Part shown: positions 2,151-52,736 of the stretch, one piece after another
Layout: every line of letters begins with the position of its first letter
Numbering within the stretch: position 1 is the stretch's first letter
Position numbers and translations under genes: made by a program
The notes under the pieces: model-generated
The model's database searches: none
Seen by the model: the letters and a program-made list of their open reading frames with translations, nothing else
What the model was told of the DNA's origin: nothing
NCBI GenBank assembly: GCA_013239625.1
Contig: MU053559.1
Location: forward strand, 3,536,607 to 3,600,606
Direction of reading: 5' to 3'
Source: Lama guanicoe
Lineage: Eukaryota
DNA: 64,000 bases

Positions 2151-3487
2151 CTCCCCTCGTTATACTGTTCCCTGCCCTCCCTGCAATTTATAAGACTTCC
2201 CTGCAACACACATGCTTAGGTTTTGCCATTGCCAGGGATGCTCTGCTCTGAAACAGCCCTACGTCACACACCCTCTTCCACTTGGGATCCCTTGCCCGAC
2301 ACTCGCGAGACAGCTAACTGATGTTAAGGGGGGCTGGGGTCACTCTATTAGAGCAACTCATTGACTTATATGGACTTGAATGTCTAATCTTCATCTTATC
2401 AACGCTTTGTCCTCTGTATTCAGACTGTCCCTGAGTAGGAAGTTTTGTTTTTTTTTTTTAAAGTTGTACTAGGAAGCAAAATAATCACACTGTAATCTGA
2501 AATATCTTTGAAAGTTTTTCTGTACCTTTAAGTATCATGTTCCTTTTGTTTTAGATGTAATGGAGTCCCCCAATTTTCCTACACGGTTGAAAATATTTTT
2601 GATGCTCTCTGTCTTCCTGTGCGATCATGGTGGTCATGCCTGGTGGGGAAGGTGGTTAGGGAGGTGATTTGACGAGATCTCTGGACTCAAGTCCTTTCTC
2701 CAAGAGGTATATGTTTAAAAGAACAAAGCAAATTTCAGGTATGGCGTGGTCCCACTTTAATGATAAGTCTCTGTTCCAACAACCACTTACTTTTTCAAAT
2801 TATACCATGTGCTGGGGCTTTACAAAGGCTCTTCAGAAATGCGTGGGTCTGTTAGCAAATACACATGTGTTGCCTTAACCATACTGGAAGCCAGTTAACA
2901 GAATGTGTATTTCAGATGCAGTTTGTCATGGATTCTGGGAGGCATGGGGCTTCAAACAGGATGAGCCTGGAGTGCAGAAGGGGAAAACTAGGTGGACGGG
3001 TGGGTTGGACTTGGACTTGGGAAATGTACTTCCTTCCTGTGGGACGTGGCTTGTGTTCGTTTAGTGTTGACTTGCCTCCTCTGTAGCCCTGTAAGCTTAC
3101 TGAGAAGCCAAATAGACCCTCCCGCCCCCAACAGCCAGGGATAAGGATGAGACCACCCAAATCAGTTACACTGTGGCCAGAACCACATGTTTAATCTTTA
3201 CTATGGGTTCAAACTATCCTTGCTCCTAGGAACACAGACTCCAGCAATTAAAGTCAACATGTGCTTCCATGAAACCATTGTGTCCACCTCTAAATGATTA
3301 TAAATATGCACCATAAGCTATGGCTGGGGGGGTGGAGCATGAACTGGATGACAACTTATGCTAATGACACTGCAGAAACCAATATTCGCCACTCAAAATG
3401 ACATGGAAAGATTCTACTCGATACCTCCTGGGTTCCATTCTTTTTTCCGGGTGTCTCTGGGGAAAATGATTTCTGTTTTCATTCCAG

Positions 3488-3694: not shown

Positions 3695-3868
3695 ATGAGA
3701 AATCATGTACTAGCGGCATCCTTTTCTATGCTATCCCTGCTGGCGCTGATGGGAGATACGGACAGCAAAGCAGACAGCTCATTCATGATGGACTCCGACC
3801 CTCGACGCTGCATGAGGCACCACTACGTCGATTCTATCAGCCATCCGTTGTACAAGTGTAGCTCAAAG
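3695..3868 (+). CDS. NDP: Norrin, first coding exon (aa 1-58: signal peptide and start of cystine knot)
   Basis: Translation [58 protein letters not shown] is recognisably Norrin. Ends at donor AAG|gtaaga (3868/3869); 174 nt, phase 0. Confidence 0.98.
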
Positions 3869-13499: not shown

Positions 13500-13748
<249 letters not shown>

Positions 13749-14770
13749 GGCCAGCTGTTGAGTGGCTTCTGGATGGGACAGCCTCCCCCCTCGCTGAGGC
13801 AGTTCAACCGGCCATGAAAGGACTGGCAAGAGAAGAATTAAAGAAAAAAAAAAAAGATGTAGCAATTCCCACGGGATTCTGCATATTCTAGTAATAAAGA
13901 CTCTACATGCTTGTTGACAGAGATACTCTGGGAACTTGTTTTCCATTCCCATCTCCTTTCCCTGGTATAATTTCTTTTGGTTCTTTTTCGGATCCAGGCA
14001 TCTTCCCCCTCGGCAATGAGTGCTGTTTGGGTTCCAGCAATCCAGCGTTACTGGGAAAAGTGGTCCCCCATGCAAGAGTGGGTCAGGCTGTCACTGTTTG
14101 GTGCAGATTTAGGGAAGCATTTGCTTTGGGAAGCAGGAAAGCTCGATTTTTTCTGGGACATCATCTGGCTTTTTTTTTTTTTCATCTTGTCATTTGGTCT
14201 AAGGTTGCCATTGATGCTAAAGGTTACCGATTTCAAATTCCAGGCACCTAGCATGTGGATATGTTTAGCCAGATTTACTCACAGCCAGCTAACTGACATT
14301 AAAATAACTAACAAACAGATTCTCCTGTGTAATACCAGAACTCCTGATAGCCGTAATTAGTATCCAGAAATGACTCTGGGGAAGTAAAAGTGGCATAAAG
14401 AATTTGTCACCTTGAGACTCTCTCAGCTAAATTATGGTAGAATTTCGTAAGGGAGCAGACTTTTAAAGACCTCCGCAAATACAGATCCTGCACTGACTTT
14501 GAAAAAGGCATATACGTACTAGTGGCATGGAGAATGCACTATACTCATGCATGCAAATTAGACAACCGAGTATGAATCTATTTGTGGGTGTGCTATAGCT
14601 TTAGCCATGTCGTGAGCATCATTCTCTAACATCCACTCCTCCATGTGAAGCTTGCTGCCAAAATGGCGGCCTGGCTCATCTTCTGAACATTTGGTTCCAA
14701 TATATTTTGGTCCTTGAGGCTCAAATTTTGAGTTATTCCCATGTTTTGAAATAAAAAGAGAGTATCTTCA
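13749..14770 (+). other. NDP: NDP 3'UTR
   Basis: About 1 kb with no recognisable repeat between the TGA and an AATAAA at 14750-14755. The cleavage position is estimated. Confidence 0.7.
14750..14755 (+). terminator. NDP: Distal polyadenylation signal of NDP
   Basis: AATAAA followed within ~45 nt by GT/T-rich sequence (tgactgtgtaaggattgtttttt). Confidence 0.7.
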
Positions 14771-27458: not shown

Positions 27459-27819
27459 TCTGGAAGTCCCACTCAAGATGAAGCAGGAAACCATTCAGAA
27501 GGCCTCCTTTTGGTGTTCAGTTTTTGTCTACCATGTCATGTGGGATGTAACCAACCACACAAATTCCAAGTTCTAATAATATGATATAATATAGTATTTC
27601 TGATCTGAAATCATTCATGTATTATATTAGCTGGGGCCCATTTAGGGCCCTCTGATTCTAATTCCCTTTTGCATAACCACTGGCAATACCCTACGTTAGG
27701 GCCTGTGACATTATACACAGGTGGAATTTTGGTCCTTGTACTCTGGCCTCATTTGCATCCTTTGTCTCTTGTCTCTTTCTGATTCTCATATGACTCATGA
27801 GTTGCTCTTCTATTATTGC

Positions 27820-28140
27820 TTTATTCACTTATTCATGCCAAAACTAATGATTGAAGGCCCACTACGTGCTGGGCACTAAGGGCAGGGGAGACACAAGAGA
27901 ACAGAACTAAAACCTTCCTGCCCTTATGGAGCCTGAATTCTAACAAGGAGACAGACAACAGACAATGCACAGAATACATAAGTTAATTGTATAGTACATC
28001 AGAAGGTGGTAAGTGTTCTGGAAAAAATTAAAAGTAGGGCAGGGTAAGGGGAGGTGGGAATGCTGGCCGTGAAGTGAGAGAGGTGTGAAATGGGGTGGAC
28101 AGGTTAGGACTCACAGAAGAGGGAGCACTGGGGCAAGGTC
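27820..28140 (-). mobile_element. L2 3' end
   Basis: attcacttattca...cactacgtgctgggcact...cctgcccttatggagcctgaattcta...ggtaagtgttctggaaaaa. Confidence 0.75.
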
Positions 28141-28434
28141 TTCACATTTACTAATGGAGTGATGCGATCATATCTGAAAATCAAGGCTGTGGTTCTGTTG
28201 GCTACACCTGTCATCCCCTGAGAATTAGATGGAGGCATAATGCGGGGAGGAGTAGAGAAAGAAGGGTCATGTGACTTGCAGATGAGATGTGGTGCTTAGA
28301 TGTCAGAGGCGGTGCTGGGGTGGGCTGTCTGTGAGTTGCCCTGTACATTCTTTCTGCAGGGGGTGGGGGGCTAGACACTTAGAAGTCCTTGCTGGGCTGG
28401 GCAAGATTGAGGCCAGAACCAGATGTGCACACAC

Positions 28435-28485
28435 AAGAAAGAAGAAAAAAAGGAAAGAAAGAAAGAGAGAAAGAGAAAGAAAAGA
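28435..28485. repeat. (GAAA)n-type purine tract
   Basis: About 50 nt of only A and G directly abutting the left inverted-repeat arm. Confidence 0.85.
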
Positions 28486-28775
28486 TCTAAATAAAATAAA
28501 TTGGTTGAATAAAAAGAGTTCATAGGAAAAGGGAAATTCATATTACTGTTGTTGGACTTTCTCAGAAATATTCCCAGACTGAAAACTACAGCTGTAAACC
28601 CCTATAGTTATGGAGAATAATTTTATTTTCAAATGATAGAAAAATGAGTCTTAATGGAAATAGCTAAAAGGAGAAGGGTAGAAGTGAATTAGATCAATAA
28701 AAAAATGGAAACTCATTTTAAACTTGCCAGAGGCAAGATTTGGGTACCAGCAAGGAATCGTGGTAGCGTGCAAAC
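28486..28775 (+). repeat. Inverted repeat, left arm (~290 bp)
   Basis: Reverse complement of 29417-29705, about 86% identical by hand alignment, with perfect blocks tgccagaggcaagatttgggtaccag and ggtagaagtgaattagatcaataaaaa. Confidence 0.95.
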
Positions 28776-29416
28776 ACAGGTATCATGGTCTTCAGCCCAG
28801 AAATGGTAGTGGAAACCATGAGAACAAACAAACTTCAAAGGGGACCCTGTGAACGCCCACATTTAAGGGGCAGGTAGGAAAGAGGAAAATGATAGAGACA
28901 TCTGACTGGTTTCAGTCAGAGATGCCGAGGCAAAACTGGGAAAGAAGTTGAGGAAGTGGAGGTCAAAGAGGATCCAGGTGGTGGTCAGCAGCGCATCACC
29001 CACCCAAGGATTGTGTGAGGACCAGGCGATTGGGTGGCATTATGGGGAGACTTTGGTGACTTTGGGCCAGAAACTTTCCATCACAGTTCACAGGAAAGGG
29101 GCTTAATTGCCAGGGGAGGTGGGCTGTGGTGATTGAAGGCTGCAGAGATGACACCAGTAAGGCAAGTCTACTGGGCTTTTTTTCAGATTTCCTGGGCAGG
29201 GAAGGAGGAAAAGTCCTGAGTGGCGAGCTCCCCAGGCCTGCTTTGTGGGCCGGGACCTGCTGACTCATACTGATTCTCCTCCGCTGCCCTCAACTTCCCT
29301 CTAAACAGCATGCATAGTTTTATATTCATTTGCATTGTCAGGAAGACTCTCCTCTGACCTTGCAGGGTGAGTACCACCAAAGGTGGGAAACTGACAAGAG
29401 CTCTGTTATTCTTACA

Positions 29417-29705
29417 GTTCGCACGCTTCCACGATTCCTTTCTGGTACCCAAATCTTGCCTCTGGCATCTTTAAAATGGGATTCCATATTTTTATTGATC
29501 TAATTCACTTCTACCTTTCTCCTTTTAGTTATTTCCATTAAAACTCATTTTTATCATTTAAGAAGAAAATTACTTTCCATTACTATAGGGGTTTATGGCT
29601 GTAGCTTTTAATCTGGGAACATGTCTGAGAAAATCCCACCATGGCAGTTAAGAATTTCCCTTCTCCCATGAACTCCTTTTATCCAACCAATTCATTTTAT
29701 TTAGA
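29417..29705 (-). repeat. Inverted repeat, right arm (~289 bp)
   Basis: ctggtacccaaatcttgcctctggca and tttttattgatctaattcacttctacc are exact reverse complements of left-arm blocks. Confidence 0.95.
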
Positions 29706-29844
29706 CTTTTCTTCTTTTTTTCCCCTCAGGTTCTGCTTCTGAAATGTTGCATTGATGATTCAAATACTAAGATGGTAAACATTTGCCATCTGTTTCCAGT
29801 GTGTAGTTCAATAGTATACCAATAATCATCTGGAAATACAGGAA

Positions 29845-29913
29845 TTTTTTTTATTGAAGTGTAGTTGATTTACAACGCTGTGTTAGTTTCTGGTGTCCAG
29901 CATAGTGATTCAG

Positions 29914-29952
<39 letters not shown>

Positions 29953-31078
29953 TTGTGATTTTTTTTCATTTTAGATTATTATACAATATTTTTTATAAAC
30001 TTTTTGAGATTCTTTTCCATTATAGGTTATTACAAGATATTGATTATAGTTCCCTGTGCTCTACAGTAGGTCCTTGTTGTTTATCTATTTTATATATAGT
30101 AGTGTGTATCTCCTAATCCCAAACTCCTAATTTATCTCTCCCCCTTCTTTCCCCTTTGAAAACCATAAGTTTGTTTTCTATGTCTGTGAGTCTGTTTCTG
30201 TTTTGTAAGTTTGTATCATATTTTATTCTACATATAAGTAATGTCATATGATATTTGTCCTTCTCTGTCTGACAGATTTCACTTAGAATGACGATCTCTA
30301 GATCCATCCATGTTGTTGCAAATGGCATGATTTTATTCTTTTTTATGGATGAATAGTATTCCATTGTATAAATATACCACAGCTTCTTTATCCAGTCATC
30401 TGTCGATGGACATTTGGGTTGCTTCCATGTCTTGGCTATTATATCTAGTGCTCCTATGAGCATTGGTGTATATGCATCTCTTTGAATTAGAATTTTCTCT
30501 GGATATATGCCCAGGAGCAGGATTGCTGGATCATATGATAACTTAATTTTTAGTTTTTTTAGGAACCTCCATACTGTTTTCCATAGTGACTGTACCAATT
30601 TGCATTCCCACCAACAGTGTAGGAGGGTTCCCTTTTCTTTACGCCCTTTCCAGCATTTATCATTTGTAGACTTTTTAGTGATGGCCATTCTGACCCATGT
30701 GAAGTAGTAATACCTCACTGTAGCTTTGATTTGAATTTCTCTAATAATTAGCGATACTGAACATCTTTTCATGTGGCTATTGGCCATCTGTAAGTCTTCT
30801 TTGGAGAAATGTCTGCTTAGATCTTCCAGCTATTTTTGGATTGTTTTTTGTTGTTGTTGTTATTGGGTTGTATGAGCTGTTTATATATTTTGGAAATTAA
30901 GCTCTTGTCAGTTTCATCATTTGCAAATTTTTTTCCCAGTCTGTAGGTTGTCTTTTCATTTTGTTTATGGTTTCTTTTGCTATGCAAGAGCATATGTTTG
31001 ATTAGGTCCCATTTTTTTTGTTTGTTTGTTTTTATTTCGATTGCTTTGGGAGACTGACCTAAGAAAACATTGCTACGC
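29845..31078 (-). mobile_element. 5'-truncated L1 (ORF2 C-terminus plus 3'UTR)
   Basis: ORF 30113-30787(-) has L1 ORF2 C-terminal motifs ([58 protein letters not shown]). TSD ggaaatacaggaattt/ggaaatgcaggagttt; internal (TA)n at ~29914-29948. Confidence 0.96.
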
Positions 31079-46820: not shown

Positions 46821-47664
46821 GACAAATGGATCATTAGAACACTAAGGTTCTGGATACACTGTAGTCAATTCCAAAGACATTATAAGAATTCAGTACTAAA
46901 TTAAGCAACCCTCAAAAGCAAAGTGAGCAATGCACTTTACCAGAAGCAATGCATTTTGGGAACATAATACAAAACTAAATTAATTTATTTTAGAGTTGGA
47001 ATCATGTTCCCATTTTTCCAAAAAGAAGACAAGTAGGTTCTAGAAACCAGGGAAAAATGAGCTTGATGGAATTGCTCTGCAAAATTCTAAAACAGGTATC
47101 AGAGGGATGTTTTAGGGGACACACATAGAAGTTGCGGCCACTGTTGAAATGAGTTTACCAATAAACAAGCCAAATCTTGTTTCCTTTGATGGTTAGCGTT
47201 GATGAAACCAATAGGTAAGGAATTTCATATGCTTTAAGGGAATCTTAAATTCAGCTAGGTATTTGACAGATAATTTTATCACATCTTTTTGGACAAAATT
47301 GTTGGATTAGTAGCGATTTGAACAGTTTTACCCAAAGGATAATGAACTGATAGGAACCAGCTGTGCCCAGCAGTGAGCTCAAGGGCCCTGCGATTAGCCA
47401 AGCTTTGCTCAATGAATCCCTACACCAACACTCAAAGGTAGATAGTATTTTTACAATGAGAATGGAAGCACAGCAAAGGTAAGAATCTTGTGCAAAGCCT
47501 CACAGCTGTAACTCAGAAAACCTTCCCGGAGAAATCCAGCTCTATCAGACAACGTAATGCAACCTTGGGCAAATTAATCAACTGCTGCAAAATTCAATTT
47601 CCTCATTGGTGAATTGGGGATAATAATGCTTACCTACAAGGATGTTATAGTGATGAGGTTGCTT

Positions 47665-48000
47665 TTTTATTCATTCATTTAACAAATGCCAAGCATTGTG
47701 CAACATGCTGGAAATATTCTATGGGGGGGAGGGGTGAAGGGTTGGAGACAAGTGGAGGAGGAAGGGAGACATATAACAACAAATAAACAAACAAATAAAT
47801 AGCATTTGCAAGTTGTATTAGGACAATGAAGCAAAAGTACAGGTGCTGGGAGAAAGAGAAACAGGTGGAAAATAAATTATCAAAGTATGGGAACCGTGCT
47901 TTGGTCAGCAAATCATCACAGAGGAGAGATTTTAAGCAAAACCTTTAAGAAGAGGAGAGGGATTTGGGTAGGGGAAGAGAGGAAGGCATTCTTAGGCAAG
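47665..48000 (-). mobile_element. L2 3' end
   Basis: ttattcattcatttaacaaatg...tgccaagcattgtgc...gggagacatataacaacaaataaa. Confidence 0.6.
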
Positions 48001-49743: not shown

Positions 49744-50089
49744 TAGGGGGGCCAGATACGACAAAGACACACAGTTAAATTTAAATTTCACCCAGACCCC
49801 TTTTTAGAATAATGTTTAGTGTAAATATGTTCCCAATATTGTCTGGGACACATTTACACTAAAAAAAGTATTTATTGTTCATTTAAAATTTAGATTTAAG
49901 GGGAGGGTATAGCTCAAGTGGTAGAGCACATGCTTAGCATGCATGAGGTCCTGGGTTCAATCCCCAGTGCCTCCTCTAACAACAGATAAATAAGTAAACC
50001 TAATTACTTCCCCCCACCAAAAAAAAAAAATTAAAATTTAGATTTAACTGGGAGTCCTATGTTTTTATTTGCTGATTCTGGCAATCTTA
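49744..50089 (+). mobile_element. MER53-like palindromic element split by a SINE
   Basis: Ends taggggggccagat / ctggcaatctta, homologous to 56428-56615, with a central palindrome at 49815-49863. Confidence 0.75.
49900..50030 (+). mobile_element. tRNA-Ala-derived SINE (Vic-1-like)
   Basis: Full head, A12 tail and perfect 17-bp TSD ttaaaatttagatttaa (49883-49899 / 50031-50047). Confidence 0.95.
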
Positions 50090-52620: not shown

Positions 52621-52736
52621 TTTTGGGGGGAAGAAATTAGGTTTATTTGTTTTGATTTTATTTTTTTAATGGAGGCTCTGGGGATTGAACCCAGGACCTT
52701 GTGCACATGCTCTACCACTGAGCTATACCCTCCCCC
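52621..52736 (-). mobile_element. tRNA-Ala-derived SINE (Vic-1-like) with internal deletion
   Basis: ggggattgaacccaggaccttgtgcacatgctctaccactgagctataccctcccc lacks the gctaagc anticodon-loop segment. Confidence 0.9.

What the first reader, a model, noticed from the sequence alone, without database searches (positions are those of the whole stretch)
28486..29705. Large inverted repeat of apparently non-TE sequence (290-bp arms, 641-bp spacer)
Seen: 28486-28775 is the reverse complement of 29417-29705, with ~39 differences in ~290 nt by hand (~86%) and perfect 26- and 27-nt blocks. The symmetry continues into an outer purine tract on the left and a pyrimidine tract on the right. I do not recognise the arms as L1, SINE, LTR or MER, saw no third copy in the window, and found no clear TSD or transposase. 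Part of the spacer looks like old L2. Inference: a local inverted duplication or unrecognised foldback element that could form ~290 bp of dsRNA (ADAR/endo-siRNA substrate) or flip its spacer by arm-to-arm recombination.
Basis: partly seen in the sequence, partly recalled or inferred. Interest (0 to 1): 0.75.

Follow-up and report, generated by a model that had tools for sequence, protein, structure and literature searches.

The report
Old local inverted copy behind NDP
A 300-base stretch of non-coding camelid DNA appears to have been copied backwards into an ancient repeat 640 bases away, tens of millions of years ago; it is real, but it looks like an ordinary DNA-repair scar rather than a jumping element or a working RNA hairpin.

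Summary
The inverted repeat is real: 28486-28775 versus 29417-29705, 253 of 293 columns identical (86.3%), no third copy in the window. It lies about 14 kb behind the Norrin gene (NDP) of a camelid. The arms show no mobile-element hallmark: no target-site duplication, tRNA head, L1 ORF2 or Pfam match. The DNA on both sides of the left arm shares one unusual G-rich, strand-biased composition that the arm interrupts; by recall it is one L2 element. So the left arm is probably the copy, pasted in from the right arm by a replication or repair template switch, and the spacer is probably unflipped. The arms have diverged like neutral DNA (K2P 0.127): the 26- and 27-base perfect blocks are expected by chance and G-U wobbles show no strand bias. 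Genome copy number, orthologues, expression, editing and inversion polymorphism stay untested, so two copies of an unrecognised camelid repeat are not excluded (about 15%). Inverted duplicates of this class are already catalogued in mammals. Ordinary; interest 0.15.

The parts
28486..28775 (.). Left arm; inferred derived copy (symmetry traceable out to 28467)
   Evidence: Composition (A 0.41, G 0.20) differs from both neighbours, p about 1e-4 each (boundaries chosen by eye).
29417..29705 (.). Right arm; inferred source copy (symmetry traceable out to 29722)
   Evidence: Composition not different from its outer flank 29723-29843 (p=0.24) but different from the spacer part 29201-29416 (p=0.001).
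28776..29416 (.). Spacer, 641 bases, made largely of decayed old repeats
28776..29190 (-). G-rich left part of the spacer; by recall a decayed L2 reverse-transcriptase region, continuing the element outside the left arm
   Evidence: G fraction 0.32, reached (>=0.30) by 2 of 146 other 415-base tiles. L2 label recalled; Pfam found nothing in 3 frames.
27810..28405 (-). G-rich left flank; by recall the 3' part of the same L2; ends approximate
   Evidence: Same composition as the left spacer. Collinear but weak match to 47659-47947 (49% identity, 25 of 300 shuffles reach it: inconclusive).
29265..29357 (.). Piece of an old interspersed repeat inside the spacer
   Evidence: 59% identical over 100 columns to 2160-2251, 0 of 300 shuffles (target picked from the scan, where it beat 6 of 6 whole-window shuffles).
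28435..28482 (+). (AAGA)n purine microsatellite; inferred expansion of the shorter tract that mirrors it on the right
   Evidence: Tandem Repeats Finder, period 4, 12.5 copies; alignment.
29706..29729 (+). Pyrimidine tract at the outer end of the right arm
29844..30829 (-). Neighbouring L1 3' fragment (not part of the repeat; it continues to about 31060)
   Evidence: ORF 30113-30829 matches L1 ORF2p residues 1074-1271, E 2e-74; left end.
3695..3868 (+). Context: NDP (Norrin) first coding exon
   Evidence: Translation agrees with Norrin proteins.
13521..13748 (+). Context: NDP last coding exon; candidate poly(A) signal at 14751
   Evidence: Norrin structures, E 3e-46; signal positions.

Best explanation
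A single old local inverted duplication by templated insertion. A replication fork or resected break inside an already ancient G-rich repeat (L2, by recall) switched template to single-copy DNA about 640 bases ahead, copied 310-350 bases in reverse, and rejoined the repeat. The right arm is the source and the left arm the copy. The short purine tract that came along later grew into an (AAGA)n microsatellite. The arms then drifted apart neutrally to 86%, roughly 25-60 million years at assumed mammalian rates, and the spacer kept its original orientation. Most likely no function. Shown: the repeat, its divergence pattern, the lack of element hallmarks, the composition pattern. Inferred: direction of copying, mechanism, age, lack of function. 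Recalled: the L2 label.
For: Exactly two co-terminal copies, 641 bases apart, none elsewhere in the window. Left flank and left spacer have the same strand-specific composition (p=0.68; reverse complement p=7e-11; trinucleotide distance beaten by 8 of 292 tile-strands) and the left arm interrupts it. The right arm matches its outer flank (p=0.24). No target-site duplication: longest shared word 5-6 bases in 4 flank comparisons, within the shuffled range for the 3 that had a null. No tRNA head, no Pfam domain in 12 frames, 6 of them arm frames, no L1 ORF2 match in the 3 A-rich frames while the neighbouring L1 is found at E 2e-74. Neutral-looking divergence: 21 transitions, 12 transversions, wobble-compatible changes 8 versus 13 by strand (p=0.38), inner versus outer half p=0.096. 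Germline inverted templated insertions are documented in humans (PMC8421209, passages).
Against: Genome-wide copy number and outgroup alleles were not seen, so direction and single-copy status are indirect. The SINE heads in this window are 79-94% identical pairwise (mean 85%, 21 pairs among 7 of the 8 copies), the same range as the arms, so divergence does not exclude two copies of a lineage repeat. The right arm also differs in composition from the spacer next to it (p=0.001), as an element end would. No call confirmed L2. No microhomology is visible at the inner junction, though it would be hidden without the ancestral allele. Composition boundaries were chosen by eye. The events defined in PMC8421209 have templates within 100 bases and are shorter.
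Confidence: 0.7

Rival explanations
1. Two independent, opposite-orientation insertions of an unrecognised camelid-lineage repeat of about 310 bases (or a fragment of an LTR or L1 untranslated region).
For: Arm identity (86%) equals that of the window's SINE heads (mean 85%) and falls within the 76-88% of its L1 3' copies. The left arm interrupts an older repeat, as an insertion would. The right arm's inner end is near a composition change. The arms are co-terminal, as full-length copies would be.
Against: No third copy in 64 kb while the SINE has 8. No tRNA head, target-site duplication, terminal inverted repeats, TG...CA ends or L1 ORF2 signal. Two copies of a rare family 641 bases apart is itself best explained by local copying. 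L1 untranslated regions and LTR families could not be tested.
Confidence: 0.15
2. An older structure kept alike by arm-to-arm gene conversion or by selection for a duplex (ADAR or Dicer substrate made by NDP read-through or an unannotated RNA).
For: A transcript of either strand would pair 261 or 266 of 293 columns, with an unbroken helix of 53-54 pairs. The inner half is somewhat more alike than the outer (12 of 145 against 21 of 141 substitutions). A minority of mammalian intergenic inverted duplicates are expressed (7.8% human, 5.7% mouse; PMC5398296).
Against: The gradient is not significant (p=0.096), the perfect blocks are at chance level and there is no wobble bias. No Rfam family beyond chance (best E 2.4). 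The locus is about 14 kb beyond the likely NDP poly(A) signal. Conversion-maintained X palindromes have arms over 8 kb and over 99% identity (PMC8327919).
Confidence: 0.09
3. A foldback-type DNA transposon or invertible cassette with 290-base terminal inverted repeats around a 641-base core.
For: The geometry fits.
Against: No target-site duplication around the whole unit, no transposase domain, and the core's left part continues the sequence type outside the left arm on the same strand. In yeast, lowering Alu inverted-repeat identity to 86% cut rearrangements about 58-fold, and widening the spacer from 12 to 20 bases cut recombination about 40-fold (PMC10164571), so the structure should be close to inert in duplex DNA; the same paper shows such repeats do interact in long single-stranded DNA.
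Confidence: 0.04
4. An assembly or library fold-back artefact.
For: The arms share no 31-base word and one arm accounts for about 13-15% of the searched words, so the 0.85-0.88 word shares of public runs do not by themselves prove that both arms are in them.
Against: The arms differ by 33 substitutions with a transition excess and only 3 indels, none a homopolymer slip: evolutionary, not sequencing, differences. 18 of 24 listed runs, in 7 studies and 4 organism codes, hold 85-88% of 241 sampled words of the region (16 runs, 6 studies, 3 codes if the study of the best holder is left out); a missing left arm with its tract would cap the share near 0.85 before any other loss.
Confidence: 0.02

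Closest known systems
Inverted duplicates catalogued in vertebrate genomes with Inverted Repeats Finder (Chen et al. 2017, PMC5398296; read: parts 1-2 of 6 and passages)
   Same: Two reverse-complementary arms of 10-10,000 bases with a spacer up to 1,000 bases, intergenic; 4.3 million in human, 3.2 million in mouse, also in non-repetitive regions.
   Different: At 290 bases the arms lie in the top length class (80th percentile 36 bases), so non-repeat arms of this size are uncommon; no camelid was among the 21 genomes.
MMBIR/FoSTeS-type templated insertions, MMB-TI (PMC8421209; read: passages)
   Same: Inverted copy of a nearby template; found as germline variants, about 100 per person in two donors, and proposed to accumulate over evolution when no gene is hit.
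   Different: There the template lies within 100 bases and the insert is at most a read long; here 641 bases and about 310 bases, old, with junction microhomology no longer testable.
Large mammalian X-chromosome palindromes (PMC8327919; read: passages)
   Same: Inverted arms around a spacer, on the X (X-linkage of NDP is recalled).
   Different: Those have arms over 8 kb, over 99% identity, mostly carry genes, and undergo conversion and spacer inversion; this one has 0.3-kb, 86%, gene-free arms.
Inverted Alu pairs as dsRNA and instability substrates (PMC10164571; read: passages. ADAR editing of such pairs is recalled)
   Same: About 300-base arms at about 85% identity within 1 kb: the same geometry and predicted duplex.
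   Different: Arms are not a known SINE; the site is intergenic; transcription untested.
LIRBase long inverted repeats, hairpin-RNA and siRNA sources (PMC8728187; read: passages)
   Same: Imperfect arms over 80% identity that fold into a long hairpin.
   Different: LIRBase requires arms over 400 bases; no small-RNA evidence here.

Membership tests
Inverted duplicate (PMC5398296 definition) | Reverse-complementary arms of 10-10,000 bases, spacer 0-1,000 bases | tested here: met
   290/289-base arms, 641-base spacer, 86.3%.
Inverted duplicate (PMC5398296 definition) | Stable predicted hairpin (below -15 kcal/mol, stem of 21 pairs or more) | tested here: met
   -601 and -586 kcal/mol; longest helix 53-54 pairs.
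Templated insertion (MMBIR/FoSTeS-like) | Insert is an inverted copy of nearby DNA | tested here: met
Templated insertion (MMBIR/FoSTeS-like) | One arm interrupts previously continuous sequence | tested here: inconclusive
   Composition supports it; L2 collinearity is recalled and the in-window alignment test gave 25 of 300; no outgroup allele.
Templated insertion (MMBIR/FoSTeS-like) | Junction microhomology | tested here: inconclusive
   None visible at the inner junction; the outer one is blurred by the microsatellite.
MMB-TI as defined by MMBSearch (PMC8421209) | Template within 100 bases of the insertion | tested here: not met
   641 bases.
Foldback or MITE DNA transposon | Target-site duplication around the unit | tested here: not met
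   Longest shared word 6 bases, the commonest value in 500 shuffles; old duplications can decay.
Foldback or MITE DNA transposon | Core unrelated to the flanking DNA | tested here: not met
   Left spacer matches the left flank in strand-specific composition.
Foldback or MITE DNA transposon | Dispersed copies in the genome | not testable with these tools
   No genome held; none in the window.
Pair of SINE copies | tRNA-derived head | tested here: not met
   Rfam finds 8 tRNA-like heads elsewhere in the window, none in the arms; ARAGORN 0 in 28300-29850.
Pair of L1 fragments | ORF2 similarity on the A-rich strand | tested here: not met
   3 frames, best E 0.26 to an unrelated enzyme; control L1 E 2e-74. 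Untranslated regions untested.
Pair of solo LTRs | TG...CA ends with a short target duplication | tested here: not met
   Ends inspected, flanks; a truncated LTR piece cannot be excluded.
Large X palindrome (PMC8327919) | Arms over 8 kb and over 99% identity | tested here: not met
LIRBase long inverted repeat | Both arms over 400 bases | tested here: not met
Hairpin-RNA, endo-siRNA or ADAR substrate | One transcript spans both arms, with editing or small RNAs | not tested
   No reads were laid on the locus.
Hairpin-RNA, endo-siRNA or ADAR substrate | Substitutions biased to keep pairing on one strand | tested here: not met
   8 versus 13 wobble-compatible changes, p=0.38; low power.

The most novel reading that the evidence does not exclude
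A repair-born inverted copy that camelids have since co-opted: read-through from NDP or an unannotated RNA folds into a 290-pair duplex that is edited or diced, or the spacer flips as a polymorphism in a regulatory interval between NDP and its neighbour. A second novel reading is that the arm is an undescribed camelid mobile element without SINE, L1 or LTR hallmarks.
Probability: 0.07. Interest if true: 0.55.

Novelty: new member of a known kind. Interest (0 to 1): 0.15.

Why it matters
If the best reading holds it matters little: one more fixed templated insertion. It could serve as a presence/absence marker for the camelid lineage, and as a datable test of whether 300-base, 86% arms exchange sequence at all, since the two arms give an internal clock. 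It would matter more if the duplex were transcribed and edited, because that would be a long double-stranded RNA made of non-repeat sequence next to a retinal-vessel gene (role of Norrin recalled), or if the arm proved to be a new mobile family.

Tried and rejected
Own-genome search: no genome held. No reads were laid on the locus, which leaves copy number, spacer orientation, editing and expression open. A 25-base arm block gave 0 matches in the metagenome and viral collections, but the control, a SINE 26-mer with 8 window hits (3 exact), also gave 0 in the metagenome collection, so these blanks say nothing. A 53-residue open frame across the right inner junction found no candidate among 5.8 billion proteins; uninformative for non-coding DNA. 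L2 could not be confirmed: Pfam 0 in 6 flank and spacer frames, Rfam only chance matches, of 5 targeted in-window alignments three aimed at L2 collinearity gave 25, 94 and 195 of 300 shuffles and one gave 3 of 300 on a target pre-picked as the best of a scan. Rejected: perfect blocks or an identity gradient as signs of conversion; homology beyond the tracts (81 of 1000) and between the spacer halves (17 of 500, short and patchy); splice-like motifs at the right arm's ends as evidence of a retrocopy, since such motifs are common in the window and no poly(A) tail follows the left copy. Literature: NDP + MAOB + 'inverted repeat' gave 0 papers; NDP/MAOB/Norrie/intergenic/enhancer gave 11 listings, none on this locus by title and abstract start; PMC5615350 has no mention of NDP or MAOB. 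No supplements were read; catalogues there could list the locus. Earlier scan notes: nothing similar by sequence or place.

Full report
Observation. 28486-28775 aligns to the reverse complement of 29417-29705 with 253 matches, 33 substitutions and 7 gap columns in 293 (86.3%), around a 641-base spacer. Local alignment carries the symmetry into the flanking purine and pyrimidine tracts, to 28467 and 29722, and no further (81 of 1000 shuffles). The arm-to-arm E-value is 2e-96 and neither arm has another hit better than E 0.05 in the window; a more sensitive scan agreed. The 27- and 26-base perfect blocks are what this divergence gives by chance (66% and 24% of 20,000 simulations).

Context. The window encodes Norrin: coding exons at 3695-3868 and 13521-13748 on the + strand. 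The first exon's translation carries a residue variant shared only with the Camelus ferus protein among the 6 of 10 cluster members fetched, so the genome is camelid. That NDP is X-linked and followed by MAOB is recalled; I did not look for MAOB exons. The repeat starts about 13.7 kb after the candidate poly(A) signal at 14751. An L1 3' fragment lies just right of it. In public data, 18 of 24 listed runs, from 7 studies and 4 organism codes, hold 85-88% of 241 sampled words of a 2.4-kb stretch around the repeat; the best holder may be the source. This shows the region is real in several samples but does not strictly prove both arms, because one arm is only 13-15% of the words. The pattern of differences (transition excess, 3 indels, no homopolymer slips) argues against an artefact.

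What the arms are not. They carry no tRNA-derived head, no Pfam domain in 6 frames, no L1 ORF2 similarity in the 3 A-rich frames although the neighbouring L1 is found at E 2e-74, no terminal repeats or TG...CA ends and no target-site duplication above chance around either arm or the whole unit. These tests do not cover L1 untranslated regions, LTR families or unknown families. Divergence does not help: SINE heads in this window are 79-94% alike (21 pairs among 7 of 8 copies), the same as the arms. A pair of lineage-specific repeats therefore remains possible, about 15%.

Which arm is the copy. The left flank (27800-28400) and the left part of the spacer (28776-29190) have the same base composition on the same strand (p=0.68) and not on opposite strands (p=7e-11). 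Both are G-rich to a degree reached by 2 of 146 other tiles, and 8 of 292 tile-strands are as close in trinucleotide profile. The left arm differs from both (p about 1e-4). The right arm does not differ from its outer flank (p=0.24) but does differ from the spacer beside it (p=0.001). The boundaries were set by eye, so these p-values are descriptive. By recall, the flank and left spacer read as consecutive parts of one minus-strand L2: a decayed reverse-transcriptase catalytic motif at the spacer's left end and later ORF2 and 3' sequence in the flank (translations), with perhaps 150-250 bases of L2 missing where the arm sits. No call confirmed this. Taken together, the left arm is most simply an insertion into a continuous old repeat, and the spacer is in its original orientation. 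That also speaks against a foldback element, whose core should not continue into the flank.

How it most likely arose. A template switch during replication or break repair: synthesis stalled in the old repeat, jumped about 640 bases ahead to the opposite strand, copied 310-350 bases and returned (inference). Inverted templated insertions of this kind occur in the human germline and are proposed to accumulate when harmless (PMC8421209, passages), though those called there are shorter and nearer. Junction microhomology cannot be judged without the ancestral allele. The K2P distance is 0.127 with standard error 0.023, 25-58 million years at assumed rates of 1.1-2.5e-9 per site per year (rates recalled), older than the 16.3 million-year split of Old and New World camels (PMC12337305, passages). 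Conversion would make this an underestimate.

Could it do anything. If transcribed, either strand folds into a long duplex: 261 or 266 of 293 columns paired, -601 and -586 kcal/mol. That follows from the identity alone. There is no sign of selection for it: wobble-compatible changes are 8 and 13 by strand (p=0.38) and the inner-outer gradient is not significant (p=0.096); both tests have low power. Expression, editing and small RNAs were not tested. For flipping, yeast data show that 86% identity lowers inverted-Alu rearrangement about 58-fold and that a few more spacer bases lower recombination about 40-fold, except in long single-stranded DNA (PMC10164571, passages). Polymorphism was not tested.

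Comparison. It meets the definition of an intergenic inverted duplicate, a class counted in millions in mammals, though most have much shorter arms (PMC5398296, parts 1-2 of 6 and passages). It fails the definitions of large X palindromes (PMC8327919) and of LIRBase repeats (PMC8728187). It works like an MMBIR-type templated insertion but is outside the 100-base window of that study's definition. Two searches found no paper on this locus; supplements were not read. Earlier notes of this scan reached similar verdicts for similar repeats in primates; these are unchecked and not evidence.

Verdict. Real, correctly described, most likely a neutral repair scar tens of millions of years old (70%). 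New member of a known kind. Interest 0.15; the co-opted hairpin, flipping or new-element readings have about 7% and would deserve about 0.55.

Noticed in passing
window 3695-3868 and 13521-13748 (+): Intact NDP (Norrin) coding exons. The last exon alone (75 residues) is on record as a protein in NCBI, probably a partial gene model.
   Followed up: partly
window 29330-29420 and 29706-29730 (+): Cluster of splice-like motifs: a strong donor at 29366-29372, an acceptor-like site ending at the right arm's inner boundary (29417) and a long pyrimidine tract plus AG at its outer end. The donor motif occurs 6 times and tract-plus-AG 71 times in the window on both strands, so chance is likely.
   Followed up: partly
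window 29844-31060 (-): L1 3' fragment with a 238-codon open stretch of ORF2, a (TA)17 run at 29915-29949 and a 51-base tandem duplication at 29943-30048.
   Followed up: partly
window 11308, 16212, 20810, 34438, 46196, 49903, 52670, 57719: Eight tRNA-derived SINE heads that pass the Rfam tRNA threshold; two form an inverted pair 2.6 kb apart at 49940-50016 and 52624-52705.
   Followed up: partly
window 2160-2251 and 29265-29357: Two copies of an old repeat piece, 59% identical; family not determined.
   Followed up: partly
window 47270-47420 and 47660-47950: By eye and recall, a decayed CR1/L3-like reverse-transcriptase piece and another L2-like 3' end.
   Followed up: no
(public runs): All 18 strong holders stop at 0.85-0.88 of the words whatever the organism code; unexplained (microsatellite, filtered parts, or a window species equally distant from all).
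   Followed up: partly
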